From the NCBI GenBank assembly GCA_902563055.1, contig CACEWE010000003.1, positions 1,450 to 65,449 of the forward strand: 64,000 nucleotides of DNA. Direction: 5' to 3'. The stretch is from an uncultured Gammaproteobacteria bacterium (GTDB lineage Bacteria > Pseudomonadota > Gammaproteobacteria > Francisellales > CACEW01). This document shows positions 26,314-58,029 of this stretch, piece by piece. The notes below the pieces were generated by a model. That model was not told the origin of the DNA, did not search any database, and saw only the letters and a program-made list of their open reading frames with translations. Both the position numbers and the translations under genes were made by a program. Numbering within the stretch: the first letter of the stretch is position 1; each line of letters begins with the position of its first letter.

Positions 26314-26314
26314 T

Positions 26315-27646: not shown

Positions 27647-27707
27647 AGTGATACGCTGTTTATCTATTTTTTTGCTTGGAAATTTATGGATTCTATTACC
27701 CCTGTCT

Positions 27708-28118
27708 TTAGGTTTTTAAAGCGCAGCTATTATATTTTTGATAGTAACTTGGGGTGCAGAAGGTAATAGACCCATATGGGGCTGGATTCTGGCTATAGCT
27801 ATAGGCGAGCTGGTGGTCAATATAACCATGGATTTGGATTTTTTTTCCGGCTAAGCTAATTCCAAAAAATGCATTGTGCTCTTGGCTTGGAATTTCTATC
27901 ACCCGGTAATAGTTATCCTGGTATACCAAAATATTTGTTTGTTTAAAAGCAGCAATATCATAGGATTTTTCACTTGTATAGTCGAGATATCTGATAGGAT
28001 GTGCTAGATGGTTGATAATCGTGAGGGGGGTAAGCTTTTGGCTAAAGGCAAGGATTGGGACATTACAAAAAAGTATAATTACAAGACTAGTTACCATATA
28101 GTAGGATCTTTTGTTCAT
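27708..28118 (-). CDS. Small secreted or membrane-anchored protein of unknown function
   Basis: ATG at 28118 after GGGAG. N-terminal hydrophobic signal or anchor YMVTSLVIILFCNVPILAFS. It is the only minus-strand gene in the island. Confidence 0.5.
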   Translation of the reverse strand: MNKRSYYMVTSLVIILFCNVPILAFSQKLTPLTIINHLAHPIRYLDYTSEKSYDIAAFKQTNILVYQDNYYRVIEIPSQEHNAFFGISLAGKKIQIHGYIDHQLAYSYSQNPAPYGSITFCTPSYYQKYNSCALKT

Positions 28119-28218
28119 ATGTAGCTCCCTAGCCATAGAGGCTTGTTTATTATAATAGGCTTTTACCCTAGAGTGTTTTTGTTCATAGTGCAAGTGTGGC
28201 TAATTATTGTATGAAATT

Positions 28219-28242
28219 TTATTGCATATAATATTGCAATAA
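28219..28242. promoter_or_regulatory. 24-bp palindrome (8-bp arms TTATTGCA/TGCAATAA) enclosing TATAAT; candidate operator over a -10 box
   Basis: Reads TTATTGCA TATAATAT TGCAATAA. Lies in the divergent intergenic region between 27708-28118 (-) and 28274 (+). Confidence 0.35.
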
Positions 28243-28273
28243 AAAGCCATAAACTAATCATATTGTTTTTTAA

Positions 28274-29251
28274 ATGTACTTATTTGAGATGCTCAGTAAA
28301 CATTTTCTTGAGCTTAGTAAGCAATTGCTTATGATTGTGAAAAAAAATAATCAACAAGGAATGCAAATGTATAGTGGTATAGGCGAAGAAGGCATGTCTG
28401 GGAGTGTGGAGAGTTTGTCTGAAAGTACGTCGATTGAGCTTCCAAATTATCCAAAAGTTAAGGTTCCTGGTTTATCTGTTGCAGTGCGGTGTCCGGAGGA
28501 TGCAATAACAGACTCTCCAAGTTCTGCTAGAGGGGATTTAAGTGCGCGTTCTTCTCGTCTTGGCTCTGATGGGGCTTCTGGTGAGGGTCCAATTACGCAT
28601 TCTCCTCTTAATTTATCTGTTAGTATGCCACCTCAGTTAAATACAACTCCTGTTAAATGTGAAAATGCCATTCCTTTTCAATCTCCACAAAATAAATCTG
28701 CTGTGCAAGGCCAAATTGCGCCCGGCTTGAATGCCACCTCACCAAAAAGTGCTTTGCCCATTTCTGCTGCTGATGGTGCTTTTGATCCAGGATCTGCTGG
28801 TATAGCTAGAGAGCAATTAGGGCATGGCGAAGAGGAAGCAGCCCCTGAATTAAGTTTATTGTTTAATTCTGTTGAAAGGCATCAGGCAAATGAAAAACTA
28901 CAAGCTTCTAAACAAGGAGAGAAACATCCACTTGAAGGGGGACGAAGTCCCAGTCCAGAGCGAAAGAGACGGAGGTCTATAGACTCCTCAGGAAGGTCTT
29001 CTGCTTTTTCTCCTCCGCTTTCTTCTCCAGGTTCAACTCAGTTTCAAATGGATTCATCAGAAGACTCCCTTTCACCAAAAGCTCTTGTTAGAGAAGATTC
29101 TCTAGATTCTATGTTATCTGGATACTCAGGATCTTCAACAGGGTCTTCATCTAGCGAAAGACCTCTAACAGAAAATGAAATATGGATGCGAGACTTTTAC
29201 AATAATCCAAGAAGTAATACTGATTATAATACAAGTATGGGGCACAATTAG
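28274..29251 (+). CDS. Ser/Pro-rich low-complexity protein, member 3 of the island family
   Basis: 325-aa maximal ORF. An alternative ATG at 28361 has the better RBS (CAAGGA). Motifs DGAFDPG, RKRRRSIDSS, STQFQMDSSEDS and a Ser-rich tail. Confidence 0.6.
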   Translation: MYLFEMLSKHFLELSKQLLMIVKKNNQQGMQMYSGIGEEGMSGSVESLSESTSIELPNYPKVKVPGLSVAVRCPEDAITDSPSSARGDLSARSSRLGSDGASGEGPITHSPLNLSVSMPPQLNTTPVKCENAIPFQSPQNKSAVQGQIAPGLNATSPKSALPISAADGAFDPGSAGIAREQLGHGEEEAAPELSLLFNSVERHQANEKLQASKQGEKHPLEGGRSPSPERKRRRSIDSSGRSSAFSPPLSSPGSTQFQMDSSEDSLSPKALVREDSLDSMLSGYSGSSTGSSSSERPLTENEIWMRDFYNNPRSNTDYNTSMGHN

Positions 29252-29254
29252 TGA

Positions 29255-29431
29255 CGGGTGTCTGTAGACCCGGGAAGTTCCTTTGCTTTTTCTCCTTCTG
29301 ATGAGATTCAATTCTCAACATCTCTGGATAATCCTCAAGGGCAAGGAAAGAAGCCTATATTTCAAGATAATTCAATTGTATCATCTATGTCTTGTTCCTC
29401 GTCTTCTTCAAGCGAACATGATTTTATGTAG
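29255..29431 (+). pseudogene. In-frame continuation after a TAG-TGA double stop; a diverged second copy of the preceding C-terminal module
   Basis: Same frame as 28274-29251. 58 open codons (SFAFSPSDEIQFSTSLD...SCSSSSSSEHDFM*) parallel SSAFSPPLSSPGSTQFQMDSS...SSTGSSSSERP. Confidence 0.45.
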
Positions 29432-29713
29432 CTATGAAACTTTTACTTTGCTGTGATCTTATCACATGTATGGATATAACCTTATAATTACTGTTTTTTA
29501 GTGTTTTTTTTTTGCTGAATTTTTCAAAATAGTGAATTGAAATATAAGAACCGGTTTTTACAGAGTGCTTGTTTCAACACAGTTAGTATAAATATGATGC
29601 AAAATAAATGTGATACTGCTTTAATTTGCGCAAATTTACTTTAAAATGTGTGATAGATATAGGGCATTGGTGTATAGTGCTTTTTTAGATGGATTACCTA
29701 TAAAGGAAAGAGG

Positions 29714-30748
29714 ATGTCAAACCGAATTAAAAATAAAGGCTACTTAAAACTTGTGCAAAATAAAAGAGCCTTGGTTCGTCAAAAAGTTAAAGGAATAAGA
29801 TTTTTATGGTCTCAATACAAAAGTAATATAAAGTCTAAAGAATACGTGGATAATGGTATTTTAAAACTTCTTCATAGTGCAAATGTGATGTCGCAAGTTT
29901 TAAGATTATTGCCCAATGATCATGTTCAACTTTTATCTCTTGCTGAAGAAAAAGTAGATATAGCCTTATGGCTCATGCTTTTTAAAATCAAAAGCGATAG
30001 TGTATCGATTCCTTTAACATGGATAGATGATGATTTTAAGCAACTGGTTCTTAACGCAGAAAGCCAGCTTTATCAGGCAAAAATTATAAAATTATTTCGT
30101 GGTGTATTGGCTGCGATAACAGATGAAAAATTTAAAGAAATTTTTCATCTGCCTCAGTTAGAACGTTTTCTTGAAACGATAAAAAAAACGAATGTTTCAG
30201 ATGAGAGTGAACAAGAAAAACATGAACTAATTGAGAAGCTAGCTAAAATTATTAGGGAAAAAGAACTCTTTGAGAAAACTGAAGTAGTTCCAGGTAATGT
30301 GCCAGAGGGTGAGAGTGACTTATCTAAGCTTTTAATACATCCACAGATTAATAGAATAAGCGAGAGTAGCTTCCAGCCTGAATCTTCTCCACAAATGCTA
30401 AGGCATGAAGAGGAGCAGGAGGATGAGGAGTGGACATTAGTAGAAGACGAAAATGACGATGATTACAAAGAGAAACAAGATGCTTTTGTGGGAATTATAG
30501 CAGAGCGATTGAGGATAGATAGAACGCTTCCTAATGGTGCTCAGCGCTCTTTTGCCCGGCCTATACCAGGAAGTCAGGGGGCCTTTAACGGAGATGAGGT
30601 GGGTGATTCGTTCGATACGGAGAGTTTTAATTCTACAAAAGGAACATGTAGCAGTAGTGGTACATTTGCATCTACTCTAAGTTCTCATGGATCATTAAGC
30701 TCTGAAGGTTCAGGTGAGGATGTGCAGTTTGGAATGTCTATTAGATAA
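29714..30748 (+). CDS. Helical N-terminal domain plus acidic/Ser-rich tail protein, member 4 of the island family
   Basis: 344 aa with RBS GGAAAGAGG. EEQEDEEWTLVEDENDDD (LIR-like), SQGAFNG, and the C-terminal GEDVQFGMSIR. Confidence 0.65.
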   Translation: MSNRIKNKGYLKLVQNKRALVRQKVKGIRFLWSQYKSNIKSKEYVDNGILKLLHSANVMSQVLRLLPNDHVQLLSLAEEKVDIALWLMLFKIKSDSVSIPLTWIDDDFKQLVLNAESQLYQAKIIKLFRGVLAAITDEKFKEIFHLPQLERFLETIKKTNVSDESEQEKHELIEKLAKIIREKELFEKTEVVPGNVPEGESDLSKLLIHPQINRISESSFQPESSPQMLRHEEEQEDEEWTLVEDENDDDYKEKQDAFVGIIAERLRIDRTLPNGAQRSFARPIPGSQGAFNGDEVGDSFDTESFNSTKGTCSSSGTFASTLSSHGSLSSEGSGEDVQFGMSIR

Positions 30749-31077
30749 TTATTTCAAAAAATCCTTTTAGTTGTATATCTTCTTTTATTTTTTCCTGGCT
30801 TGAGAGTCTTGTCTTTAATCTTTAAAGTAGTGTCAGTCTTCAGGCTATATTTAATGGTGTGCTTTGTTTTTGATTTACGCTCATGAAGTTTTCATTGTGC
30901 AAAATATTGATTCCTATTGTTGTTTTATTTTTAATAGCTTAATGCAAGCCAAAATGCTTGTATTATATGCTATCATATTGTTTTTATTTAAACCAAAAAT
31001 ATACTTTTTCTTGCTTTGAGTCTGTTAATTACGGTATGGTATATGGTAACAATCTAAACTTATAGTAAGGAAATGAT

Positions 31078-31458
31078 ATGGCACATGGAAGATCTGATGA
31101 GGCATCAAAAGAAGCTGTTGGGGGTGGCGTTGCTGGAGATAAAAGCGCAGTTGATAATGGGGCTCGAGCCCTTTTAATTACGCCGGTAAGGAACTTTCCT
31201 GCCTACTCTAGATTATCGCCTGCTCCTTTTACTGCAAGTCTACTAGATGGTGAGGGTGCAAGTCGACCAGATGGTGAGGGTGCAAGTCGACCAGATGGTG
31301 AGGGTGCAAGTCAGCCAGATGGTGATGTTGCAAGTGAAGATTTTGATAGTCAGCCTACTAACCCTAGTCAAGAACACCCGGATCATCAGAGGCTATGGGA
31401 CATGTCTATTGATGGTTCACAGAAATCTGATATAGTTTTAGAGTCACAATCACAATAA
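31078..31458 (+). CDS. Small acidic repeat protein, member 5 of the island family
   Basis: 126 aa with RBS AAGGA. DGEGASRP x3 repeat. LWDMSIDGS motif near the C-terminus. Confidence 0.6.
   Translation: MAHGRSDEASKEAVGGGVAGDKSAVDNGARALLITPVRNFPAYSRLSPAPFTASLLDGEGASRPDGEGASRPDGEGASQPDGDVASEDFDSQPTNPSQEHPDHQRLWDMSIDGSQKSDIVLESQSQ
31246..31341 (+). repeat. 24-bp tandem repeat: two perfect units, a third with two substitutions, then one degenerate unit, in frame
   Basis: gatggtgagggtgcaagtcgacca at 31246, 31270 and 31294 (the third with two substitutions), then a degenerate unit. Confidence 0.95.
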
Positions 31459-31600
31459 AAAATGTAATAAAATGAAACTATTTTTCTTGTCTTATATATT
31501 GTCAGCTTGGCTTGATTTTAAACGTGAACACTAGTTTTTCTTGTGTTACATTTTGTTTTTACGTATTATCTGGCAAATTTAACTTAGTATGGAGTAAGAA

Positions 31601-32125
31601 ATGCCTCTAAAGAAAACGATAACAACGAAAAGTAAGCCAATGAACATAGCTACTGCAAAAGATAGTGATCAAAGGTATCAAACCCCCGAGGCAAGATCTC
31701 AAGTAGCACCTAGTGCTCCAGAAAATTTGGAGTTGCCGCCACTTCATCCTGATGGTAAATCTTATAGAGAAGAACTTAAGCGTGAGCTAGCATATAGAAG
31801 GATACATCGAGTTGCAGCACAAGGCGGTAGTTTTGATCGCAAACTTCAGTTTAAGTTAGATGGTTTTTCAGATTCTAGTTCTTTTGGTTCTGAGTCTAGT
31901 TCATTAGGGAAAAGAAGTAGAGGTGGCAGTATAGGCAGTAGAGATAGTCTTGGTAGTAGAGATAGTCTTGGTGCTGCAAGCGATGAGCTGACTTCATCTT
32001 ATCCAGATACTTCTGATGATGAGTCCTGTGCAAAAAAAAAAAGATGTCCCGCAAACTTGCAATCTATTTTTAGTGGAGTATCTTTAGATGTAAATGATAG
32101 TGAGGGGTTTGGCCCAACACAATAA
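31601..32125 (+). CDS. Ser-rich low-complexity protein, member 6 of the island family
   Basis: 174 aa with RBS GGAG. QGGSFDRKLQFKLDGFSDSSS, GKRSRGGSIGS, SRDSLG x2, and an acidic tail TSDDES. Confidence 0.6.
   Translation: MPLKKTITTKSKPMNIATAKDSDQRYQTPEARSQVAPSAPENLELPPLHPDGKSYREELKRELAYRRIHRVAAQGGSFDRKLQFKLDGFSDSSSFGSESSSLGKRSRGGSIGSRDSLGSRDSLGAASDELTSSYPDTSDDESCAKKKRCPANLQSIFSGVSLDVNDSEGFGPTQ
31937..31972 (+). repeat. Perfect 18-bp tandem duplication (x2), in frame
   Basis: agtagagatagtcttggt occurs twice, encoding SRDSLG SRDSLG. Confidence 0.95.
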
Positions 32126-32378
32126 GATCGCAGCACTTTCTATACCTCTATCAAAAGTAGCAGTATATACGCGCTAAATGTATCAGAGAGCGCCTGAAAA
32201 CATTTGCATTTCTATTTTTAATACATTCTATTGCCTTAAAATTGTAACTTTTCATAAAGTTATGACCTTTCTGTGCATGAAAAATATGAGTGCTATAACG
32301 TGAAGTATAAAAAATACTTGCAATTCAGTAAATTGATATATATCATATTATATAGTTATTTTGACGTAGGTTGTTATT

Positions 32379-32870
32379 TTGAGTGGTTGTATAAGTCTAT
32401 TGAATGTACTTGAAAGCGTTAATGTGGCTGTTACTAGTAAAGGTCAGAAAGTTATTGATGTATTTAAAGAAAATGCGCAAGAGAGGGGCTTAGGTACGCT
32501 TGCTGCCGGGACGGCAGCTAAAAGTGCACTAAATTCATTAACACCATTTTTTTTTCATGAAATACAGAGGCTAGTTTCAACAAAAGAATTTATTAAACTT
32601 AAAGAAAAATACAATGCGCAGGTGGATTTAAGTGGCGATGCACTACAAGAAAGTAGGAAGGAATTGGCTCTTAAACATAATAGTGTTTTAAAACAATTAG
32701 AATCGCTTTTTATTTTTTCAAAAGAGTTTGTTAGTATTGTTGATGAAACATGGGAGAAATTTCCATATAACGATGCAGTAAGAAATATGTTTAAAGATTA
32801 CTTTGATTGTTTAAAAAATGAAACTCAAAAATTACAATTAGAGCAGCACAGTATGGATGCGTTTTTTTAG
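32379..32870 (+). CDS. Helical protein of unknown function (last clear gene of the island)
   Basis: 163-aa ORF with a TTG start and weak RBS. No recognisable motif. Confidence 0.45.
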   Translation: MSGCISLLNVLESVNVAVTSKGQKVIDVFKENAQERGLGTLAAGTAAKSALNSLTPFFFHEIQRLVSTKEFIKLKEKYNAQVDLSGDALQESRKELALKHNSVLKQLESLFIFSKEFVSIVDETWEKFPYNDAVRNMFKDYFDCLKNETQKLQLEQHSMDAFF

Positions 32871-37344: not shown

Positions 37345-37965
37345 ATGCCAGCAAAGACCATTACATTATTGCAACAAAAGGGTGGCTCAGGCAAAACCAC
37401 CACTTCTGTAAACTTAGCCGGTGGCTTAAGTGAGCTTGGTTACAAGGTGGTCATTGCCGATATGGACAAAGACAAGCCTGATGCGTGGTCTTGGGCAATG
37501 AAATCTGACAAGCTCAAAGATATGGCTATTCAAGTTAACGAAAAACAAGCGCGTGAGGTTATCACTGGTCTCAAGGACCAATACGATTACATTATTGTTG
37601 ATACACCGCCAAATTTTCAGACCGCAGCTTTAAAAGCAGCATTGTTAGCAGATTTAGTGGTAATACCAACTGCGCCAAGTGGTATGGATTTATCGGGTTT
37701 AATGGAAGCTAAAGAATTGGCATTAACTGCGGGTCGGCCCTATCGCTTATTGGCCAATCGTATTGCAAAAAATACCGTTATGAGCCGCTCTTTGCTTGAT
37801 GTCTTAAGAGATGGTGGGGATGCTTTTGAAATTGCCATTCCACAAAGCGTAAAATTTGTTGAGGCTGAGAGTGAGGGGCTTTACATTGGTGAGTATGCAC
37901 CCCAGTGTCCAGCGCATCATCATACTCAAGCGCTCGCAAAAGAAATCGTAGCATTTTTTCAATAA
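37345..37965 (+). CDS. parA: Small ParA-family partition ATPase (type Ib-like, 206 aa)
   Basis: Deviant Walker A QQKGGSGKTTT and IIVDTPP. Short length, with no N-terminal extension. Confidence 0.8.
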   Translation: MPAKTITLLQQKGGSGKTTTSVNLAGGLSELGYKVVIADMDKDKPDAWSWAMKSDKLKDMAIQVNEKQAREVITGLKDQYDYIIVDTPPNFQTAALKAALLADLVVIPTAPSGMDLSGLMEAKELALTAGRPYRLLANRIAKNTVMSRSLLDVLRDGGDAFEIAIPQSVKFVEAESEGLYIGEYAPQCPAHHHTQALAKEIVAFFQ

Positions 37966-37976
37966 GGAAAACAAGC

Positions 37977-38876
37977 ATGACTAAGAAATTTTTATTTGGC
38001 CGCAAGCGTACGGGTGAATTAGGTGATGGTGGCGGTGCTGTCGTTATGGAAGACAAGAAAGAGAGTTTATTATCCTTAAAGCTTCAAGCCTTATCTGATG
38101 ATGCACAAAACCGTGGCGTTTTGAATATGTTAGCGCTAGATGCTTTAGCGCCGGACGCTAATCAACCACGTAAAGTTTTTAAAAGCATCGATCAACTAGC
38201 AAAGAGCATTGAAGAAAATGGCATTATTCAGCCTTTGGTGGTGCAAGAGCAAAGTGCTGGTAAGTATACCATTATTGTTGGCGAACGGCGTTATTGGGCT
38301 GCAAAGCAACTTAAGCTTGAGGCCGTTCCTTGTATAGTACGCAGTGATCTTGGTCAAGATCAGGCTAAGCTTTTAGTATTACAATTGCTTGAGAACGATC
38401 AGCGTGAAGCAGTTTCTCCTTTGGAAGAGGCAGAGGCACTAGCTGTGCTTGCTAAAGATTATACTCAAGGACAGATGGCCAAAGAATTAGGCCGTGATGC
38501 AGGCTGGATATCCATTCGTCTTGGTTTATTACAAGCGAGTGAGCGGATACAAAACTTGGTAAAAAATGGTCTTATTGAAGATGTGCGTACACTCCATGAG
38601 CTGCGTAAGTTTGAAACCGACCACCCCAAGAAGGCCCAGGATCTTCTTGCTGCAATAGAAAAAAATGAAGTTTCGGGTTCTTACCGTACAGTGATTGCTA
38701 ATTTGCGTAAAAAATCTGCCAAGGGTAAAAGCGAACCTATTAGTCCTGCTATTACCAAAATAGAAAAACAGGGTGATAAGCTACTTTTACACGTGGCTAA
38801 AAAGAAACGACCTGTGAGCTATACCATAGACCAAAAAGTATTGGTGCAATTTTTGGCGCAAGTAAGTTACGAATAA
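37977..38876 (+). CDS. parB: ParB/Srx-domain partition protein
   Basis: ATG at 37977 after AAGGAAA. PDANQPRK, IIQPLVV and IIVGERRYWAA motifs. HTH region QGQMAKELGRDAGWIS. Confidence 0.8.
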   Translation: MTKKFLFGRKRTGELGDGGGAVVMEDKKESLLSLKLQALSDDAQNRGVLNMLALDALAPDANQPRKVFKSIDQLAKSIEENGIIQPLVVQEQSAGKYTIIVGERRYWAAKQLKLEAVPCIVRSDLGQDQAKLLVLQLLENDQREAVSPLEEAEALAVLAKDYTQGQMAKELGRDAGWISIRLGLLQASERIQNLVKNGLIEDVRTLHELRKFETDHPKKAQDLLAAIEKNEVSGSYRTVIANLRKKSAKGKSEPISPAITKIEKQGDKLLLHVAKKKRPVSYTIDQKVLVQFLAQVSYE

Positions 38877-41211: not shown

Positions 41212-41351
41212 GTTTTTATTTCTCCTGGCTTGTTTAAACGATTACTTTAAGTGTAGAAAAGAATCTTAAAATCGCAAAAAATAAATGTAAAATTGACCTT
41301 TGTATCAAAAGATTCTATGATCGATGGGACTTATGAATAAGGATAAAAACT

Positions 41352-42701
41352 ATGGCGTCAGTTAATTCACATTTAAAAGCGGCAAAAAAACAAAGTGCAA
41401 TGATTGAAAAAACCATTGCAAGATTAAAAAAATGTCGATTTGATACCATCGCTACTTCTGGTATATACAGTGGTGATTTTGCAGCAGCTTATGCACAAGG
41501 CTCGATTATAGAGCCAAGTTTTTTATCTTCTGCACAGCATTTTGCAGATAGTAAGCAAATGGAAGCGGCATTAAGTTATCAAATGCCGGCCTGGGCATAT
41601 AGTCGTATTGCCAATCCGACTATTTTTTATTTGGAGCAGACTTTATCTTTATTAGAATCCTACGGTATGGAAGAAAATGCCAGTTGTTGTGTGTGTGCTT
41701 CTGGAATGGCTGCGATTTGTTCAGCGATTGAGCCTTTATTAGTGCCCAATAAGGCAGGAGATCCGATTAATTTTGTTTCATCTTCTCAGGTTTATGGTGG
41801 AACCTTTATGCAATTTACCACGCGGCAACAAGAACAGGGCAAAAAGGTGCGTTTTGTTGCGCCTTCTGAGAATATAGAAACGTGGGCGCAACAGATTGAT
41901 CAACACACCCGGTTTGTTTTTATTGAGGTGCCGTCCAATCCCAATTTAAGTGTGTGTGATATCAAGGCTTTGGCAGCGCTTGCCCATAAGCACCATATTC
42001 CTTTGCTTGTTGATGCCACTGTGGCTACGCCGGCACTGCTTAGGCCCTTGTCACTGGGTGCAGATATTGTGATACATTCTTTATCTAAATCCATTGGCGC
42101 CTCGGGTATGGCGATTGGTGGGGCGCTTATTAGTCGCAAAAACATAATTGCACATTATTTGGAAAATTCGCAGCGGGAGGATTTTGCAAGCTATGTGAAG
42201 TTATGGCCTAACCGTGATAATGGTCCCTGTTTGGCACCTTTGCAGGCAAGTTTGATTCTCAATGATTTGCGTACTTTGAGAATGCGTATGGCTAGTTTGA
42301 GCCACCATACTTTGACAGTGGCGCAATTTTTAGCGCAACATAAAAAGGTTGAGTCGGTGTATTATCCTGGTTTAGCCTCGCACCAAGGACACGAACTTGC
42401 AAGGGAGATGTTTGGTTTGGTTGACAGTTCAGTAAAGGCCTACGGTCATTTATTATCCTTTACAGTTAAGGGGGGTAAAAGGGCGGCTATGGCAGTTTTA
42501 GATCGTTTAGAGCTTATTTGGCGCGCAACGGATCTAGGGCGGATTAAATCGGTTGCGACCATTCCGAGTATTTCTACCCATCAACAGCAAGGTGATGAGG
42601 GCAGAGCGCTTTCTTCTATTGAGGATGGTTTAATTCGCTTGAGTGTTGGCAATGAGCATCCGGCGGATATTATAGCTGATTTATCGCAGGCTTTGAGTTA
42701 A
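41352..42701 (+). CDS. Cys/Met-metabolism PLP-dependent enzyme (O-acetylhomoserine sulfhydrylase-like)
   Basis: 449 aa. PLP-lysine region HSLSKSIGASG and a family-typical C-terminus LIRLSVGNEH. Confidence 0.8.
   Translation: MASVNSHLKAAKKQSAMIEKTIARLKKCRFDTIATSGIYSGDFAAAYAQGSIIEPSFLSSAQHFADSKQMEAALSYQMPAWAYSRIANPTIFYLEQTLSLLESYGMEENASCCVCASGMAAICSAIEPLLVPNKAGDPINFVSSSQVYGGTFMQFTTRQQEQGKKVRFVAPSENIETWAQQIDQHTRFVFIEVPSNPNLSVCDIKALAALAHKHHIPLLVDATVATPALLRPLSLGADIVIHSLSKSIGASGMAIGGALISRKNIIAHYLENSQREDFASYVKLWPNRDNGPCLAPLQASLILNDLRTLRMRMASLSHHTLTVAQFLAQHKKVESVYYPGLASHQGHELAREMFGLVDSSVKAYGHLLSFTVKGGKRAAMAVLDRLELIWRATDLGRIKSVATIPSISTHQQQGDEGRALSSIEDGLIRLSVGNEHPADIIADLSQALS
42627..42701 (+). repeat. 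Left copy of the 75-bp direct repeat (last 24 codons plus stop of the PLP-enzyme gene)
   Basis: Aligns without gaps to 43841-43915. 11 of 75 nt differ, and 22 of 24 aa are identical. Confidence 0.9.
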
Positions 42702-42994
42702 ATAAGCCCGTTACATGAACGATAGAAATACCCTGTCCATTACTTATGGTCGTTCATGTTACTATTTAATCCATTTCTATTTTAGCTGTAAGAAAATCTG
42801 GTCCTGATTTCAATGTCTTTTGCCATTTTAGCTAAAACCTATCATTCTCTTATTGTTTTTTTATAAGTTCTGATACGCGATTTTCTTGAATTGAGTTGTA
42901 TCATAATATTTAAGCTAAAGAATATTCGTAAAGGCTTTCCTTTTCTTGTGGGTATTGTTCTTTATACTAATGGGGGGAATGCGGTCTTGGTAGT

Positions 42995-43774
42995 TTAGAA
43001 TTCCGGCGCGGTGTTCATTGGGTCGTTATTGTCCCAAATGTCGCTTGTACGATAATTGTTCAAAGATAAGTAGCTAAAAAATAAGTAGCTAAAATCAAGG
43101 AAAATTGTAAAAAAACAGGCAATTTTTATAAAATTTCTAATGGGAATATCTTTATTAATGTAAAGTCGACGATTATTTAAATCAGGGTTATCCTGGAGCA
43201 TTCTTTGGATTTGATTTAATTGGCTTTTATTACTTCGCTCAATAAACAGTCCAGCTATAGTACCCATGGCTGAGTATAAAAACAGCTTTGATATATCTGT
43301 TAGGCGTATTTCCATTTTATTTGATTCAGGGGTGAGTAGCCATAAACGTAGAACTAAAATTTCTAACCCGTACTGTAGAGCGTTTTTATATCCTATATAA
43401 GGACTACCTAGGCTATAATCTATAAAGTCTTGTTGGCCCATAAGTATATGTGCCTGTTGTGCTTCTGGTCGCGGCTCTTGTGGTGTAAATTTACCTTCTT
43501 CAAAATCAATTGTTTGTGCTAAATTTTTGAGTTCGCTATCACTTTAAGATTTCTTAATCTTTTCGAGTAAGGTAGGCGCTAAATCCCTTAGTTTTTTATA
43601 TTCATAGGCTATTGCAGATTGTGTTTTTGGGCATTTATGTAATTTATGTAACAAATCCATACTGGAGATAAAATAAACGAATATCTTATCATTATCCGAT
43701 TGGGTGCGAACTATAAGACCTTCTTTCTTTGTGACTGGGGTCATTATAATCTGACAGTCTGGAAGATCTGGCAT
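42995..43774 (-). pseudogene. 259-codon reading frame interrupted by one in-frame TAA (76-aa and 148-aa ORFs plus 34 open linker codons); membrane protein of unknown function
   Basis: Manual translation shows ORFs 43544-43774 and 42995-43441 share a frame. The only stop between them is TAA at 43544-43546. Confidence 0.6.
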
Positions 43775-43840
43775 GTTTTTTCTATAAATGATTTGTTTAT
43801 TATTATATATTTATTTTTGCTTAATTCAAATTTTTATGTC

Positions 43841-43915
43841 GATTTAATTCGCTTGAGTGTCGGTAATGAACATCCGGCGGATATCATAGCTGATTTATCT
43901 CAGGCGCTTGGCTAA
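43841..43915 (+). pseudogene. Displaced second copy of the PLP-enzyme gene 3' end (DLIRLSVGNEHPADIIADLSQALG*)
   Basis: Homologous to 42627-42701, and the homology ends exactly at the stop codon. No upstream coding sequence. Confidence 0.85.
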
Positions 43916-43970
43916 GCTTATTGATATCATAAAAACTTTAAAAGTATATGTTGCTCAGATATGCAAGCAT

Positions 43971-44696
43971 CTAAATTTTAAACTTTTCACCAAGATACAC
44001 ATCTTGTACTTGTTTATTGGCTAAGATTTCCTGGCTGGTGCCTTCAGCGATAATATTGCCATCATTGGCAATATAGGCTCGGTCACAAATATCTAAGGTT
44101 TCACGCACATTATGATCAGTTATTAATACCCCTAGGTTGCGATCTTTGAGTTGTTTGATGATGCGCTTAATATCAATGATAGAAATTGGATCCACACCAG
44201 CAAAGGGCTCATCTAGAAGCATAAATTGTGGCTCAATTGCAAGAGCTCTGGCAATTTCTACCCGTCTGCGTTCGCCACCAGATAAACTATTGCCGCGATT
44301 TTTTGCAATATGTTCAATATGAAACTCTGCTAATAAAGATTCACATTTTGCCACACGCTGTTCTTTGCTAAAATCTGGCACCGTTTCTAAGATGGCCATA
44401 ATGTTATCATAGACGCTTAGTTTGCGAAAAATAGAGGATTCTTGTGGTAAGTAGCCAATACCCATTTTGGCGCGCTGATGAATGGGAAGCTTTGTGATGT
44501 TTTCGCCATTTAAGGTAATAGTGCCACGATTAGCTTTAATAAGCCCAACGGTCATATAAAAAGAGGTTGTTTTGCCTGCGCCATTTGGACCAAGTAGGCC
44601 AACAATTTCACCACTATGCACGCTTAAGGAAACCTCTTTGACCACCCAACGTTGCAAATAGCGTTTGCCTAATTGATGTACTTCTAGTTTATTCAT
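43971..44696 (-). CDS. lptB: LPS export ABC transporter ATP-binding protein LptB
   Basis: 241 aa from the ATG at 44696 (MNKLEVHQL...). Walker [18 protein letters not shown] and LLDEPFAG. Confidence 0.92.
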
Positions 44697-44700
44697 GTTG

Positions 44701-45213
44701 CTAGTCCTCTTTGGTTTGCAGTTTTTGGTAGGGTTCAATAACCATCGTGCCCCGTTTGGTTTGATCGCTCGGATAGGATATAACTTTACTAAGGGTATTG
44801 TAGGTAATTAAATGTCCTTGGAAAACGTTGTCGTCATTGGTAATAATGGCGTGATTTTGAAAAGACAGAAGATTTTTTTTCGGTTCAAAAATAATAGTGT
44901 CACTTTGCGTATGGGTAGGGTCATCATGAGGGTCAATCGTAAAAACACTCGTGGCCGGGGAGCCCCAGGCCTGCATTTTTTTGATTCCTTTAGGGGCTTT
45001 ACTAAGGGTAAGGGTCTTGGCTTGTAGATGGTTGCTTTCTTGATGTGCCTCTACATTCCCTTGATAATGTGCAGTGTTATTATTGTAGTCTATAAGTAAG
45101 CTGTCGCTTTTAATGTGAATAAGCTTAGGCGCATCTGAAGCGAGCGCAACATTGCTCATTAAAAAGCTACAGCCTAGTCCTAGTAGACTAAAAAGCAAAG
45201 ATATCAGATTCAT
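44701..45213 (-). CDS. lptA: LPS transport periplasmic protein LptA
   Basis: 170 aa with a signal peptide and OstA-like beta-jellyroll pattern. Located between lptC and lptB. Confidence 0.85.
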
Positions 45214-45775
45214 AGGTACTTTTTACATCCTTTTTTAATAAAATAGTTTTTTGCTTATTATCTACCTCAAGGCCATGGCCGGTTGTTTTATTGAGCGTAT
45301 TTTCTTGGCTAATGGTGATAAGATCATCACTGGTGGCTTTGTCATTCTTAGGGAAAATATCTAAGCTGTCCATGCTTATGTTGGTTTGCGCTTGATTGGC
45401 GCTTGCTGGTTGGTACATTAAAATACCGCCCTGAAGGTGCAGCAGGTCTCCGCTAGGGTTAAGGCGTCCTTTGGGAGCTTGTATAAACCAATTTGGCTTG
45501 GCATTTTCACTTATCAAAGAACCCTTGATGGTTTGGAGATCAGAGGCATTATCAAAGTATTTAAAGATATGCGCAATTCTTGATTCATATTGTAGATCAC
45601 CTTGGTCGTTAAACTGTTTTATATGTGCGTTTTCAATATAGGCTCTTACATCATTGGGCTTGGGGGCAATTTTCTCAAAACTGCCTGTATCAATAGCAAA
45701 CCACGCAGAAACCCACACTAATAGCCCTAGTGCTAGGATTCCAAACAAAGAACGTTTGCTATAAAATGCAATCAT
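45188..45775 (-). CDS. lptC: LPS export system protein LptC
   Basis: 195 aa with a single N-terminal TM helix. Located between kdsC and lptA. Confidence 0.8.
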   Translation of the reverse strand: MIAFYSKRSLFGILALGLLVWVSAWFAIDTGSFEKIAPKPNDVRAYIENAHIKQFNDQGDLQYESRIAHIFKYFDNASDLQTIKGSLISENAKPNWFIQAPKGRLNPSGDLLHLQGGILMYQPASANQAQTNISMDSLDIFPKNDKATSDDLITISQENTLNKTTGHGLEVDNKQKTILLKKDVKSTYESDIFAF

Positions 45776-45784
45776 TTACATATC

Positions 45785-46315
45785 CTATTGAAATTGTTGC
45801 CATGCTTGTTCTAACAAGCCTTTGCTATCGAGCAATATATCACAAACCTCACGCACTGCGCCCAAGCCTCCGGGTTTTTGGGTGACCCAGTGGGCGTGAT
45901 CTTTGGTTTGGCTTGTTGCATTAGCAGTGGCAATGGCCAATCCTACCTTTTTCATGACAGGAATGTCAATAAGGTCATCTCCCACATAGGTCATGGCATC
46001 GGTTGCAATATTGGTTTTTTTCTGGATATCCTCTAAAGCTTGGCATTTTTTCATGACACCAAGGTATACATGTTTAAGGCCTAGTTGTTGCAGGCGATGT
46101 TCGACTATACTTGATTTTCTGCCTGAAATAACTGCGACTTCTATATTTGCTTGATGGCGAATCATTTGTAAACCTAAGCCATCTTGAGCGTTAAAAGATT
46201 TCACTTCATTGAAATGGTGATCAAAAAATAAGCTTCCATCTGTGAGCACGCCATCGACATCTAGAAGGAGCATTTGTGTGTTCTTTGCTTTTTGGTAGAG
46301 TTGTTGTTGATCCAT
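45785..46315 (-). CDS. kdsC: 3-deoxy-D-manno-octulosonate 8-phosphate phosphatase
   Basis: 176 aa. HAD motif LLLDVDGVLTDG and GDDLIDIPVM. Confidence 0.9.
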   Translation of the reverse strand: MDQQQLYQKAKNTQMLLLDVDGVLTDGSLFFDHHFNEVKSFNAQDGLGLQMIRHQANIEVAVISGRKSSIVEHRLQQLGLKHVYLGVMKKCQALEDIQKKTNIATDAMTYVGDDLIDIPVMKKVGLAIATANATSQTKDHAHWVTQKPGGLGAVREVCDILLDSKGLLEQAWQQFQ

Positions 46316-46325
46316 GAAGTGGTCC

Positions 46326-47297
46326 TTATTCGATGATGCCTGATTGGAGTAGGTGGTGAATATGTAAAATGCCTTCTATATGTTTATTTTGATCTAATAT
46401 GGCTAATGAGGTAATTTTATTTTCTTGCATAATTGAAAGCGCATCTTTAGCAAGGGTATTGGCGCTGATGGTTTTTACAGAAGTGCTCATGATTTGATTC
46501 ATAATAACACTGTTTGGATTTGAGTGGGCTGTTAGGGCACGACGCAGATCGCCGTCTGTGAAGACACCAAGCATTTGTTGTTGATCGTTGGTAACACAGG
46601 TCATGCCAAGTTTTTTTTCGTTCATCATTAGTATCGCATCACGCAAGGAAGTAGACTCGGCAACTTTGGGTATAGCATCATCTGTAACCATAAGGTCTTT
46701 TACGCGAAGGTTAAGTTGACGGCCAAGCTGTCCTGCTGGATGTGATTTAGCAAAATCTTCAGCACTAAAGTTTTTAGCTTCTAATAAAGCAATAGCTAAG
46801 GCATCACCAAGTACTAAGGTTGCGGTGGTGCTAGAAGTTGGTGCAAGGTTGTGGGGACAAGCTTCTTTTGCAATAGGAATATGCAAAAGAATGTCTGACT
46901 TGCGGGCTAAAGGAGATTTTTGATTGCCGGTAATAGCAATCATCTTAACGCCGATATGTTTGAGGCGTGGAACAAGGTTAAGGAGCTCATCGGTGCGGCC
47001 AGAATAGGAAATAGCCATGACTATATCGTTTTTATCTATCATGCCAAGGTCGCCATGATTGGCCTCTGCTGCATTAATGAAAAAAGCACTGGTTCCGGTG
47101 GAGGCTAAAGTGGCCGCAATCTTATTGCCAATGTGGCCAGATTTGCCAAGACCGATAATAATAACCTTGCCAGAGATATCCAGGATACTTTGGCATGCAT
47201 CTTCAAAGTTTCCATCAAGTTGATTTTTTAAGTTGGCAATGGTTTTTTGCTCTATCTCTATAAGGTTTTGAGCGCTGCTGATAAAATTTTTGTTCAT
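46326..47297 (-). CDS. kdsD: Arabinose-5-phosphate isomerase
   Basis: 323 aa. A SIS domain (GLGKSGHIG) followed by a tandem CBS pair. Confidence 0.9.
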   Translation of the reverse strand: MNKNFISSAQNLIEIEQKTIANLKNQLDGNFEDACQSILDISGKVIIIGLGKSGHIGNKIAATLASTGTSAFFINAAEANHGDLGMIDKNDIVMAISYSGRTDELLNLVPRLKHIGVKMIAITGNQKSPLARKSDILLHIPIAKEACPHNLAPTSSTTATLVLGDALAIALLEAKNFSAEDFAKSHPAGQLGRQLNLRVKDLMVTDDAIPKVAESTSLRDAILMMNEKKLGMTCVTNDQQQMLGVFTDGDLRRALTAHSNPNSVIMNQIMSTSVKTISANTLAKDALSIMQENKITSLAILDQNKHIEGILHIHHLLQSGIIE

Positions 47298-47330
47298 ATG
47301 CTGATAAAATTCTTTCTATTTGTTTTAAAG

Positions 47331-48221
47331 ATGATATCATATTCTGGTGGTATAAGGTTAGTGGAAATTTTAGTGGCTGATTCTGTAATTGATATTAAAG
47401 ATTTAACTTTCAAGCGTGAAGGTCGTAAAATTTTTGATGATATCTCCTTTTCTATCCCAAAAGGAAAAATTTCCGTTATTATGGGCCCAAGTGGTACCGG
47501 TAAAACAACCATGCTCCATCTAATGGGCGGCCTTATTCGCCCAGAAGAAGGAACCATTAACATTCTAGGCTCAGATGTTACCAAAATTTCACGTAGGGAT
47601 AAATTCCACTTGCGCAAAGACATGGGCTTTTTATTCCAAAGTGGCGCCTTGTTTAGCGATATGAACGTATTTGACAACATTGCCTTTCCTTTAAGAGAGC
47701 ACAGTGGTTTACCTGAGTCTATCATTAAAGACATTGTGGTGATGAAACTTGAAGCTGTGGGGCTTCGCGGTGCCATGCATTTGCATCCTAGTGAGCTTTC
47801 TGGTGGTATGTCGCGACGCGTTGCTTTAGCGCGAGCGATTGCCTTAGATCCTAAAGTCTTATTTTACGATGAGCCTTTCACCGGCCAAGATCCTATATCA
47901 TGTGGAATGCTTATCAAGCTTATGCGCTCTTTAAACGACTTATTGCATTTAACTTCAGTAGTGGTCTCCCATAATGTATCGCATGTTATGCATATTGCAG
48001 ACCATATTTTTATCCTATCAGAGGGTAAGTTAGTTGAATCAGGATCGCCTGAGGAAATTACAGCAACAAGAGAAGATCGTGCGCAGCAATTTATTCATGG
48101 CTTGCCAGATGGTCCGGTGCCGTTTCATTATCCTGCCGGTCCCTTAAGCGAAGACTTACTATCGAGTAACAAAGATATAGCCCGAAAAAGGCGTAAGAGA
48201 GTTTCTGATGAAAAGAGCTAG
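47331..48221 (+). CDS. mlaF: Phospholipid ABC transporter ATP-binding protein MlaF
   Basis: Walker A GPSGTGKTT, LSGGMSRR and LFYDEPFTG. The start is uncertain; ATG 47331, GTG 47361 and GTG 47373 are all in frame. Confidence 0.88.
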   Translation: MISYSGGIRLVEILVADSVIDIKDLTFKREGRKIFDDISFSIPKGKISVIMGPSGTGKTTMLHLMGGLIRPEEGTINILGSDVTKISRRDKFHLRKDMGFLFQSGALFSDMNVFDNIAFPLREHSGLPESIIKDIVVMKLEAVGLRGAMHLHPSELSGGMSRRVALARAIALDPKVLFYDEPFTGQDPISCGMLIKLMRSLNDLLHLTSVVVSHNVSHVMHIADHIFILSEGKLVESGSPEEITATREDRAQQFIHGLPDGPVPFHYPAGPLSEDLLSSNKDIARKRRKRVSDEKS

Positions 48222-56893: not shown

Positions 56894-58029
56894 AAGCAGT
56901 ATATTGGCACGCCCATCATTTACCTAGAATTTTTATTATACTTTTGTGTGTTTTTAATTTGCTTGGTTTAAGTTATGTGCAAACGCACCCGGTCATGGTT
57001 AAGGCAGATTATTATCAAGAAAAAGTAGCGGCAAGTAAGTTAGCCCAGCAGGCATTTTTTGCAGTGAAAGCCGCACGCATAAAAAAGAAAATCGCCATTA
57101 ACCGTTTTGTTGATCCGCAACAAAGTGGTTTAATAGGAGAAAAACTTACCGATATTACCAGCGATCAAGGTGATATCTATACCAAGCAAACTACGATTAA
57201 CCCAAACATTGCAGCTTTATTTGTTAGTTGGCTAAAAGAGGCAGGTTTAAAGCAGGGGGATACGGTAGCTTTAAACACAACGGGTTCTTTTCCAGCCTTG
57301 AATATAGCGATGCTCTCTGCAATTAAAACCTTGGGGCTAAAGCCAAGGATTGTTTATTCGGTATCTGCCTCTAGTTATGGCGCTAATTTACCAAATTTTA
57401 CATGGCTGGATATGTATCAAGCCTTGGTCAAAGATAAAGTTTTTACATACCCGGTACTTGGGGTTTCGTTGGGTGGTTCGCGAGATAGAGCCCATGGTAT
57501 GAATCCAAAAGCGCGTAAAAAATTAGTAGCCCATATTGCTGCCTCAAACTATCCTTTTATTGATTCACTCCATACCCGTGATGGCATTGCCAAGCGCATT
57601 GCCTTGTTAGAAACAGCATCTAAAAATCCGGTTCGTGCTTATATTAATGTTGGTGGCTCTGGAGCCAGTGTGGGTCTCAAGAAGAAGCTCAGCGGCCAGG
57701 TTGCCATTTCAGGGGTGGCTGTCAAGTCGCTTGCCTCAGGCTTAATTCGCAGCGTTCCAATTAGTCTTATTAATACCAACTCCGTTGCGATGCATTTTTT
57801 AAATCAGGGTGTGCCTGTGGTGAATGCGCATAATATGATGCATGAGCTTATAGGGGTGTATCATTTTCCACGTGCGCCGCATTATCAGCCGGTTATAGGG
57901 TGGGGTAACCAATTTTACCACCAGCGCTATAATCAAGAGTTGGCAATTATTGTTCTAGTGTTATCTGTAGGCTTATTTATTCTTTTAGCGGTACTCTCAC
58001 GCAAGTATATGCTTAAATATACCCGGTAA
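56890..58029 (+). CDS. Third protein of the poly-gamma-glutamate locus (membrane-anchored at both ends; not CapA/PgsA-like by eye)
   Basis: 379 aa, translationally coupled to pgsC, with N- and C-terminal TM helices. Assignment is by context only. Confidence 0.5.
   Translation: MKAVYWHAHHLPRIFIILLCVFNLLGLSYVQTHPVMVKADYYQEKVAASKLAQQAFFAVKAARIKKKIAINRFVDPQQSGLIGEKLTDITSDQGDIYTKQTTINPNIAALFVSWLKEAGLKQGDTVALNTTGSFPALNIAMLSAIKTLGLKPRIVYSVSASSYGANLPNFTWLDMYQALVKDKVFTYPVLGVSLGGSRDRAHGMNPKARKKLVAHIAASNYPFIDSLHTRDGIAKRIALLETASKNPVRAYINVGGSGASVGLKKKLSGQVAISGVAVKSLASGLIRSVPISLINTNSVAMHFLNQGVPVVNAHNMMHELIGVYHFPRAPHYQPVIGWGNQFYHQRYNQELAIIVLVLSVGLFILLAVLSRKYMLKYTR

What the first reader, a model, noticed from the sequence alone, without database searches (positions are those of the whole stretch)
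42627..43915. 1.1-kb islet inserted at the 3' end of the PLP-enzyme gene; duplicated gene ends differ mainly by synonymous changes
The last 24 codons plus stop of the gene occur twice, at 42627-42701 and 43841-43915. 11 of 75 nt differ. Six codons differ only synonymously (gtt/gtc, ggc/ggt, gag/gaa, att/atc, tcg/tct, gct/gcg, plus ttg/ctt). Only the first and last residues change (G/D and S/G). Homology stops exactly at the stop codon on the right and abruptly on the left.

This is the signature of integration that regenerates the target gene's end with a foreign but functional version. The cargo is a single, now interrupted, gene. No recombinase is present.
Basis: partly seen in the sequence, partly recalled or inferred. 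Interest (0 to 1): 0.6.

Follow-up and report, generated by a model that had tools for sequence, protein, structure and literature searches.

The report
Gene-end duplication flanking a one-gene islet
A 1.1-kb piece of low-GC DNA carrying one broken gene of unknown function sits inside the last 25 codons of a PLP-enzyme gene. The gene ends with a substitute copy of its tail, and a second copy of the tail lies stranded downstream. This layout is the known footprint of prophage e14 in the E. coli icd gene, but here no recombinase is present.

Summary
Window 42627-42701 is the last 24 codons plus stop of an intact 449-aa Cys/Met-family PLP enzyme gene. It recurs at 43841-43915 with 64/75 identity (BLAST E 1e-21; best chance match 39/75).

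Most of the differences are synonymous (Sd 8, Nd 3, dN/dS about 0.07). Homology starts abruptly and ends at the stop codon.

The 1139 bp between the copies are 33% GC, against 40-43% around them. They hold one minus-strand gene with a single in-frame TAA. It has no homologue in 5.8 billion proteins, Pfam, PHROGs, PADLOC or PDB. There is no recombinase in the islet, nor among the 53 ORFs of 150 aa or more in the 64-kb window.

I measured the textbook case, e14 in E. coli icd/icdC. It has the same anatomy: 165 nt, 12 differences, Sd 10, Nd 2.

The best reading (about 0.5) is a decayed or non-autonomous integrative islet whose attL supplies a surrogate gene end. The right copy would be the native relic next to lptB.

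Mobility is not shown. The lineage is an uncultured marine gammaproteobacterium, and no sequenced relative covers the junction, so no empty site could be found.

Verdict: a new member of a known kind, of modest interest.

The parts
41352..42701 (+). Intact 449-aa Cys/Met-metabolism PLP enzyme gene (trans-sulfuration / O-acetylhomoserine sulfhydrylase-like; no NCBIfam equivalog reached). It is the target gene.
   Evidence: Pfam PF01053 E 4.6e-91, covering residues 46-448 and profile 13-380/381, so the last 24 codons are part of the domain. All NCBIfam hits are below cut-off.
42627..42701 (+). Left copy (attL-like). It forms the last 24 codons plus TAA of the PLP gene. It is inferred to be the surrogate end brought in by the islet.
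   Evidence: The inference 'foreign' comes from topology and from the e14 analogy.
42629..42646 (+). The longest identical block between the copies, 18 nt (TTTAATTCGCTTGAGTGT), at the gene-proximal edge of the repeat. Its twin lies at 43843-43860. It is a candidate crossover core.
   Evidence: A run of this length is not by itself significant, since other identical runs of 14 nt exist. The position matches the 11-nt identical block at the left edge of e14's icd/icdC repeat.
42702..43840 (.). The islet proper: 1139 bp between the copies, at 32.7% GC. Compare PLP gene 43.3%, lptB 40.1%, whole window 40.0%.
   Evidence: No other copy in the window. No blastn match in phage or plasmid collections.
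42710..42762 (+). Hairpin directly after the PLP stop codon (13-nt arms 42710-42722 / 42750-42762, 27-nt loop). It may be a terminator supplied by the islet, but there is no T-run.
   Evidence: I13. Fold -19.1 kcal/mol, z = -2.1. Not called as an intrinsic terminator.
42779..43095 (.). Cluster of six ATTTTAGCTA-like 10-mers in both orientations (42779, 42825, 42829, 42908, 43071, 43086). They may be protein-binding (arm-type or operator) sites, or partly coincidence.
   Evidence: Six of the 16 matches in the 64-kb window fall in 320 bp, where about 0.08 are expected. The motif was chosen after looking. Two lie in a 15-nt tandem duplication inside the cargo ORF.
42995..43774 (-). Cargo: one ORFan gene of 259 codons, interrupted by an in-frame TAA at 43544-43546. 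The source record calls it as separate 76-aa and 148-aa proteins.
   Evidence: Only self-hits in 5.8e9 clusters and in 1.84e9 representatives. The single weak hit, P0245, is a short motif inflated by subject repeats. No Pfam, PHROG, PADLOC, NCBIfam or PDB match. AlphaFold2 pLDDT 49.
43802..43829 (-). Sigma-70-like promoter match (TTGAAT-16-TATAAT) upstream of the cargo start, just inside the islet's right end.
   Evidence: This is a consensus match only; 9 were found against 6.7 expected in the region.
43841..43915 (+). Right copy (attR-like): an orphan fragment of 24 codons plus TAA with no gene body, 55 nt from the lptB stop. It is inferred to be the displaced native end of the PLP gene.
   Evidence: No indel, the stop codon is retained, and at most 3 nonsynonymous steps separate it from the left copy. 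This suggests a relic that is young relative to the divergence of the two versions.
43971..44738 (-). lptB, the first gene of a convergent core cluster (lptB-lptA-lptC-kdsC-kdsD). It anchors the right flank as native chromosome.
   Evidence: TARA and NCBI metagenome contigs are 97% identical and collinear over 44151-47913.

Best explanation
The islet is what remains of an integrative element, or it is a non-autonomous one. The element entered an attachment site lying inside the last 25 codons of the PLP-enzyme gene.

**Proposed mechanism.** As in e14 or phage 21 at E. coli icd, the incoming DNA carried next to its attachment site a diverged but functional copy of the gene's tail, taken from an earlier host.

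- Recombination at the left edge of the homology replaced the native tail with the imported one. The candidate core is the 18-nt identical block TTTAATTCGCTTGAGTGT at 42629-42646 / 43843-43860. The imported tail is 42647-42701, so the ORF stays full length.
- The native tail was pushed 1.2 kb downstream, where it survives as an untranslated relic (43841-43915) next to lptB.
- The cargo is a single low-GC ORFan gene with its own promoter-like site. It is now inactivated by one nonsense codon.
- The recombinase is either lost (a CIME-like decayed element) or encoded elsewhere in the genome.

**Shown:** the duplication, its selective signature, intactness of the PLP ORF, the compositional contrast, the ORFan pseudogene cargo, and the absence of a recombinase locally.

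**Inferred:** that the event was site-specific, where the crossover lay, which copy is native, and that the element was once larger or is mobilised in trans.
For: 1. The repeat is real and far beyond chance.
2. Differences are Sd 8 / Nd 3, dN/dS about 0.07, pS 0.48. Both versions therefore evolved as working gene ends before being juxtaposed. P = 0.0002 under neutrality and about 0.015 under in-situ duplication with one constrained copy.
3. The C-terminal motif is part of the Pfam domain. It is near-invariant across the subfamily even at 59% overall identity, which explains why a surrogate end would be selected.
4. Direct comparison with e14 in E. coli K-12 shows the same layout. There, a 165-nt duplicated icd end has 12 differences, Sd 10 / Nd 2, an abrupt left start with an 11-nt identical block, and homology ending at the stop codon. 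[quoted passage not shown]
5. The insert is 32.7% GC against 40-43% for its flanks, and it carries an ORFan.
6. The relic sits 55 nt from the convergent lptB stop, where a native gene end would be.
7. Window and relative L055 differ by only 1 nt in 42500-42597, just left of the repeat. The divergent segment therefore appears to start at or near the repeat, not deep in the gene.
8. Elements that keep attL and attR but have lost their integrase are a described class, the CIMEs (PMC5704250).
Against: - There is no integrase, excisionase or remnant of one in the islet (six-frame Pfam), nor among the window's 53 ORFs of 150 aa or more (47 scanned, the rest frame overlaps of scanned genes).
- No empty site, no second occurrence of the islet or cargo, and no similar element in phage, plasmid, viral or metagenome collections.
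- None of 53 loci with PLP homologues shows a duplicated gene end, so this gene family is not a known attachment target.
- The 18-nt identical block is not statistically distinguishable from the other 14-nt runs.
- An element decaying to exactly one gene plus both att sites is a special outcome.
Confidence: 0.5

Rival explanations
1. Recombinase-independent capture. A circularised or linear fragment came from a related donor, with PLP about 15% divergent in nucleotides, in which the cargo lies downstream of the PLP gene. It integrated by a single host-mediated crossover in the short homologous gene end (Campbell-type), or by homology-facilitated illegitimate recombination. This would duplicate the 75-nt segment without any dedicated element.
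For: - No recombinase is present.
- The population carries mosaic alleles. Window versus L055 shows mostly synonymous tracts with about 15% mismatches (42402-42496, 41723-41916) among nearly identical stretches. This is the same divergence as between the two copies.
- Homology ending at the stop codon is expected if only coding sequence is conserved between donor and recipient.
Against: - The longest identical run is 18 nt, within 85% identity over 75 nt. From general knowledge of RecA-dependent recombination, which needs roughly 25 or more identical bases, this is a very poor substrate (not tested here).
- Homology-facilitated illegitimate recombination normally replaces or deletes recipient DNA rather than duplicating the anchor.
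- It would be a coincidence that the fragment's homology starts 24 codons before the stop and restores a full-length ORF.
Confidence: 0.2
2. Local origin. Either an in-situ duplication of the gene end accompanied the insertion, or the right copy is the last remnant of a tandem paralogue of the PLP gene that has been almost entirely deleted. The synonymous bias would then come from selection on the functional copy, or on both paralogues.
For: - The genome does hold relic fragments of local duplications. A priA internal fragment (18596-18648) has a decayed copy at 20431-20483, matching 46/53.
- The RING-finger gene is triplicated.
- The mixed-selection model is disfavoured rather than excluded, at P about 0.015.
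Against: - The priA relic shows the pattern expected of local decay: 2 synonymous changes against 5 nonsynonymous, including a stop. The PLP relic shows the opposite, Sd 8 / Nd 3 with the stop codon kept and no indel. With so few sites the direct contrast is not significant (Fisher P = 0.14).
- pS of 0.48 implies long independent evolution as a functional end.
- The paralogue scenario needs several extra events: a duplication, a 1.27-kb deletion ending exactly at the cargo promoter, and an insertion.
- No known insertion mechanism makes a 75-bp target duplication.
Confidence: 0.12
3. Assembly artefact. The source is a draft or metagenome-derived contig in which two strain variants of the PLP end were chained together.
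For: - The source is an uncultured-type lineage known only from one 91.7-kb NCBI contig and short marine metagenome contigs.
- Related metagenome contigs L054-L056 all break inside this gene and look partly chimeric. L055 jumps to 51% GC sequence.
Against: - The two copies share no k-mer longer than 18 nt, so a graph mis-join through the repeat is unlikely.
- Both junctions (42701/42702 and 43840/43841) join unique sequence.
- The islet carries a coherent 259-codon reading frame and a promoter-like site. The chance of 182 stop-free codons at this composition is about 1e-6 (my calculation from the base composition).
Confidence: 0.05

Closest known systems
Cryptic prophage e14 (and phage 21) integrated in the 3' end of E. 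coli icd, with the icdC pseudogene
   Same: The direct repeat is made of the gene's last codons. The gene-attached copy keeps the ORF full length and the other copy is an orphan fragment. Differences are mainly synonymous (e14: 12/165, Sd 10 / Nd 2; here: 11/75, Sd 8 / Nd 3). The left boundary is abrupt, with a short identical block, and homology ends at the stop codon (PMC13626634; PMC3603311).
   Different: e14 is 15.2 kb and encodes intE and xisE. Here the insert is 1.1 kb with one ORFan pseudogene and no recombinase. The repeat is shorter and twice as divergent. The target is a PLP enzyme gene rather than icd. Excision has not been shown.
CIMEs (cis-mobilizable elements): decayed ICEs or IMEs that retain attL and attR at the 3' end of a target gene but have lost integration and transfer genes (Streptococcus; PMC5704250)
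   Same: [quoted passage not shown]
   Different: No homology to any ICE or IME, no partner element in the window, and a different phylum. CIME status requires a cognate integrase, which was not found here.
Genomic islands at tRNA or tmRNA 3' ends
   Same: Integration regenerates the 3' end of the target gene and leaves a direct repeat at the far end.
   Different: The target here is a protein-coding gene, so the constraint appears as synonymous substitutions. The only tRNA in the window (tRNA-Thr, 20243-20318) is 22 kb away.

Membership tests
Integrative element with surrogate gene end (e14 / phage 21-icd type) | Insert flanked by direct repeats of the target gene's 3' end. One copy completes an intact ORF and the other is an orphan fragment. 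| tested here: met
Integrative element with surrogate gene end (e14 / phage 21-icd type) | The copies differ mostly synonymously and ORF length is preserved. | tested here: met
   Sd 8 / Nd 3, dN/dS 0.07, both end in TAA at the same codon. The e14 reference measured the same way gives Sd 10 / Nd 2.
Integrative element with surrogate gene end (e14 / phage 21-icd type) | An identical core at the gene-proximal edge of the repeat, where strand exchange occurs. | tested here: inconclusive
   An 18-nt identical block lies at the left edge, but 14-nt identical runs occur elsewhere in the repeat. No clear core-type inverted repeat was seen on inspection of the sequence.
Integrative element with surrogate gene end (e14 / phage 21-icd type) | The element encodes a tyrosine or serine recombinase. 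| tested here: not met
   Six-frame Pfam scan of the islet at E up to 1 finds none. None among the window's 53 ORFs of 150 aa or more (47 scanned, the rest frame overlaps of scanned genes). The rest of the genome was not available.
Integrative element with surrogate gene end (e14 / phage 21-icd type) | An empty attB in relatives, or excision restoring a chimeric gene. | not testable with these tools
   No relative covers 42598-44150. L055 stops matching at 42597 and L060 reaches only 44151. Pattern scans of metagenome and viral contigs found nothing relevant.
CIME (decayed integrative element keeping attL and attR) | attL and attR are retained, and integration and transfer genes are absent. 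| tested here: met
CIME (decayed integrative element keeping attL and attR) | Recognisable descent from an ICE, IME or prophage, or a cognate integrase in the genome. | tested here: not met
   No homology of the islet or cargo to phages, plasmids, viral contigs, PHROGs or any protein. The genome beyond the window was not available.
Diversity-generating retroelement (template repeat / variable repeat at a gene's 3' end) | Repeat differences confined to adenines of the template repeat, with a reverse transcriptase nearby. | tested here: not met
   Only 2 of 11 differences have A in the right copy and 1 of 11 in the left. The changes are synonymous. No reverse transcriptase is present.
Transposon or IS insertion | A transposase, terminal inverted repeats, and a short identical target-site duplication. 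| tested here: not met
   No transposase. No terminal inverted repeats at 42702/43840. The repeat is 75 nt long and 15% divergent.

The most novel reading that the evidence does not exclude
The islet may belong to a recurrent class of recombinase-less, single-gene, low-GC cassettes. Such cassettes would insert at the 3' ends of housekeeping genes in this uncultured marine, probably intracellular, gammaproteobacterium. They would be bounded by 45-75-nt direct repeats that rebuild the gene end, and mobilised in trans. This would be a route for acquiring ORFan or effector-like genes.

A second case lies in the same window. A 5.1-kb, 35% GC insert holds only a 1636-aa ORFan (4364-9274). It is bounded by 4116-4160 and 9261-9305, which match 43/45. 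That repeat comprises the last 7 codons of an aldo-keto reductase gene plus 24 nt downstream.
Probability: 0.12. Interest if true: 0.6.

Novelty: new member of a known kind. Interest (0 to 1): 0.33.

Why it matters
If the reading is right, this is a clean, minimal example outside the enterobacteria of an insertion that protects its target gene by bringing a replacement tail. The synonymous-only divergence gives a built-in record that the tail came from another lineage.

It shows that a poorly sampled marine lineage with eukaryote-like (RING-finger) genes gains ORFan genes at gene 3' ends. It also gives a concrete test: excision between the repeats should yield a chimeric but intact PLP gene, as happens at icd.

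On its own it does not open a new question. The second islet of similar design in the same window is what could make it more than an anecdote.

Tried and rejected
**Searches for an empty site or relatives.**
- Genome contigs with the PLP protein gave only homologues of 60% identity or less (61% over one partial fragment), and the source genome is absent.
- Searches of 5.8e9 proteins with PLP and LptB gave best non-self hits of 59% and 72%.
- Members of the 90% clusters led to short marine metagenome contigs (L054-L056, L059, L060) that are 94-98% identical. None reaches the junction.
- Two codon-degenerate DNA patterns scanned against metagenome contigs gave nothing, or one distant 66% GC homologue. 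The viral contig scan gave nothing.

**Searches on the cargo and islet.**
- Cargo function: Pfam, PHROGs, PADLOC, NCBIfam, PDB, 1.84e9 representatives and AlphaFold2 (pLDDT 49) were all negative.
- The weak hit P0245 was rejected as a repeat-inflated short motif.
- Phage and plasmid blastn of the islet gave none. A tblastn of the PLP tail against phages found only full-length host-like genes.
- An Rfam scan of the islet gave only a sub-threshold PreQ1 match.

**Tests that gave no signal.**
- Which copy is native, judged by codon usage: no signal, 3 against 3.
- A shared att core between the PLP repeat and the second islet's repeat: no similarity beyond chance, P = 0.32.
- A third partial copy of the core at 43213-43226: chance level, E = 1.7.
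- A 22-nt repeat at 32166/33302: no extended homology.

**Explanations rejected.**
- A diversity-generating retroelement (DGR), a transposon with target-site duplication, and an integron cassette were rejected on anatomy.
- The larger region to the left (ParA and ParB/KorB at 37.3-38.9 kb) was considered as the real element. It was rejected because the orientation of the gene fixes the insert between the two copies.
Full report
**Observation.** The gene at 41352-42701 (+) encodes an intact 449-aa Cys/Met-metabolism PLP enzyme. Pfam PF01053 matches at E 4.6e-91 through residue 448, profile position 380 of 381.

Its last 24 codons plus TAA (42627-42701) recur at 43841-43915. Eleven of 75 nt differ. 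The repeat finder reports the 63-nt core at 92%. BLAST gives E 1e-21. The next best ungapped match anywhere in the window is 35/75, and 50 shuffles never exceed 39/75.

The two translations differ only at the first and last residues. Homology stops at the stop codon on the right and begins abruptly on the left.

**What lies between and around.** The 1139 bp between the copies are 32.7% GC. The PLP gene is 43.3%, lptB 40.1% and the window 40.0%.

The minus strand carries a 259-codon frame (43774..42995) with one in-frame TAA at 43544-43546. A promoter-like site lies at 43829-43802. The source record calls the two halves as separate proteins.

The cargo is an ORFan:
- It has only self-hits among 5.8 billion clusters and among 1.84 billion representatives. 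The weak hit P0245 is a repeat-inflated short motif.
- It has no match in Pfam, PHROGs, PADLOC, NCBIfam or PDB.
- The AlphaFold2 model is unusable, at pLDDT 49.
- The islet has no other copy in the window and no similarity to phage or plasmid records or viral contigs.
- A six-frame Pfam scan shows no recombinase remnant.
- None of the window's 53 ORFs of 150 aa or more matched an integrase or transposase family. Forty-seven were scanned and the other six are frame overlaps of scanned genes.

To the right lies a core convergent cluster, lptB-lptA-lptC-kdsC-kdsD. The relic's stop is 55 nt from the lptB stop.

**Selective signature.** Nei-Gojobori counting gives Sd 8, Nd 3, pS 0.48, pN 0.054 and dN/dS about 0.07.

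- If all 11 changes had fallen neutrally, Sd of 8 or more occurs in 0.02% of simulations.
- Suppose instead the duplication arose in place, the gene-attached copy stayed constrained and the relic drifted. Then it occurs in about 1.5%.

The window supplies a qualitative contrast. A relic of an internal priA fragment (20431-20483 against 18596-18648, matching 46/53) shows 2 synonymous against 5 nonsynonymous changes, including a stop codon. That is what local decay looks like. With so few sites the direct comparison is not significant (Fisher P = 0.14).

The PLP relic has no indel and keeps its stop. Both versions therefore evolved for a long time as working gene ends and were brought together fairly recently.

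The motif they encode (LIRLSVG.EHP.DIIADL.QAL) is almost invariant in this enzyme subfamily, even at 59% overall identity. This explains the strong constraint and the advantage of restoring it.

**Comparison with the classical case.** I fetched E. coli K-12 icd-e14-icdC and measured it in the same way.

- It has a 165-nt duplicated gene end with 12 differences, Sd 10 / Nd 2.
- The left boundary is abrupt, with an 11-nt identical block.
- Homology ends at the stop codon.

The anatomy is the same as here. The literature describes e14 as flanked by icd, which extends into the prophage, and by the icdC C-terminal pseudogene. Excision creates a functional chimera (PMC13626634). [quoted passage not shown]

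Elements that keep attL and attR but have lost their integrase are described as CIMEs (PMC5704250).

The differences from e14 are these: the insert is 1.1 kb rather than 15.2 kb, it has no int or xis, its cargo is an ORFan, and its repeat is shorter and more divergent.

**Relatives.** The lineage is poorly sampled.

- The source genome is not among the GTDB representatives.
- The best PLP homologues outside the gene's own 90% cluster are 57-59% identical (Acidobacteriota; Piscirickettsia, Cysteiniphilum). LptB's best is 72%.
- The 90% clusters led to short marine metagenome contigs that are 94-98% identical in DNA. L055 stops matching at 42597 and continues in 51% GC sequence, so it is probably chimeric. 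L060 reaches only 44151.
- Two codon-degenerate pattern scans of metagenome contigs, and one of viral contigs, found no relative covering either copy.

The empty-site test and the phylogeny of the two versions therefore could not be done.

Two indirect points emerged:
- Window and L055 differ by 1 nt in 42500-42597, so the divergent DNA seems to begin at the repeat rather than deep in the gene.
- Mismatches between them are clustered in mostly synonymous tracts of about 15% divergence. Alleles as divergent as the two copies therefore circulate and recombine in this population.

None of 53 loci with PLP homologues carries a duplicated gene end.

**Interpretation.** The most economical account is integration of a circular element at a site inside the gene's last 25 codons.

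- Exchange would occur at the left edge of the homology. The 18-nt identical block 42629-42646 / 43843-43860 is the candidate.
- The imported tail (left copy) then completes the gene, and the native tail (right copy) is stranded next to lptB.
- The recombinase has been lost or acts in trans.

I give this about 0.5. The main rival (0.2) is capture without a dedicated recombinase, by host recombination with a fragment from a related donor. Against it, 18 nt of identity within 85% similarity is a poor substrate, on general knowledge of RecA-dependent recombination that I did not test here. Local duplication or a deleted tandem paralogue (0.12) is disfavoured by the substitution pattern. An assembly artefact (0.05) cannot be excluded without reads, but it does not fit the unique junctions and the coherent cargo frame.

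A diversity-generating retroelement, a transposon target duplication and an integron cassette are rejected on anatomy.

**Which copy is native.** This rests on topology only. Codon usage gives no signal, and both C-terminal variants are compatible with the family.

**Other observations.** A second single-gene islet of similar design lies in the same window. The last 7 codons of an aldo-keto reductase gene plus 24 nt (4116-4160) recur at 9261-9305, matching 43/45. They bound a 5.1-kb, 35% GC insert that holds only a 1636-aa ORFan. The two repeats share no common core.

This raises, at low probability, the idea of a recurrent class of recombinase-less cassettes at gene 3' ends.

The window also holds a triplicated RING-finger gene, a DUF2608 protein and several family-less ORFs. 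Together with TARA-derived relatives, these suggest a marine bacterium associated with eukaryotic cells.

**Verdict.** The feature is a new member of a known kind, an e14/icd-type gene-end regeneration in a minimal, recombinase-less form. Interest is about 0.33.

Noticed in passing
window 4116-4160 and 9261-9305 (insert 4161-9260; ORF 4364-9274): A second islet of similar design. A 45-nt direct repeat (43/45; first 39 nt identical) comprises the last 7 codons plus stop of an aldo-keto reductase gene (3327-4136) and 24 nt downstream. It bounds a 5.1-kb, 35% GC insert containing only a 1636-aa ORF with no Pfam, PADLOC or PDB match. The big ORF ends inside the right repeat, in another frame.
   Followed up: partly
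window 18596-18648 and 20431-20483: A decayed copy (46/53) of an internal priA fragment lies about 110 nt downstream of tRNA-Thr(CGT). It carries a stop codon and nonsynonymous changes, so it is a neutral relic. I used it as a qualitative contrast with the PLP relic.
   Followed up: partly
window 42779-43095: Six ATTTTAGCTA-like 10-mers in both orientations lie within 320 bp of the islet. The whole window has 16 matches, so about 0.08 are expected here. They may be protein-binding sites. The motif was picked after looking, and two copies lie in a 15-nt tandem duplication inside the cargo ORF.
   Followed up: partly
window 59672-61384 (and 57682-57981 / 58674-58973): A tandem array of three diverged paralogous units (60-86% identical). 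The one ORF scanned, at 60061-60531, is a RING-finger (zf-RING_2, E 2.6e-13) protein, a eukaryote-like E3-ligase domain. There is also a separate 300-nt repeat at 95%. These suggest a bacterium that lives with or in eukaryotic cells.
   Followed up: no
window 37345-38876: A short ParA (206 aa) and a ParB with a KorB domain, resembling a plasmid- or ICE-type partition pair, lie 2.5 kb left of the PLP gene. No integrase or conjugation gene is nearby.
   Followed up: partly
L056 1039-1246; L054 2388-2473; L055 1338-1632: All three metagenome contigs from 94-98% relatives stop matching inside the PLP gene, at different points (window 41559, 41638, 42597). L056 also has a nonsense codon (CAG to TAG at codon 62). 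Either the gene is decaying in some relatives or these low-coverage contigs are chimeric; the flanks are 21-51% GC.
   Followed up: partly
window 41262-42597 versus L055: The 73 mismatches are clustered: 15 per 100 nt at 41300-41399 (the upstream intergenic and promoter region) and at 42400-42499, and 18 per 200 nt at 41700-41899, against 1-4 elsewhere. The coding-region clusters are mostly synonymous. This indicates mosaic alleles and recombination in the population.
   Followed up: partly
window 26294-32870; 31233-31352; 20784-20915: A run of ORFs with no Pfam family in low-GC DNA (29-33 kb, 32-36% GC). It includes a 24-nt tandem repeat (4 copies). Separately, a 66-nt tandem repeat lies inside the 207-aa ORF next to tRNA-Thr.
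   Followed up: no
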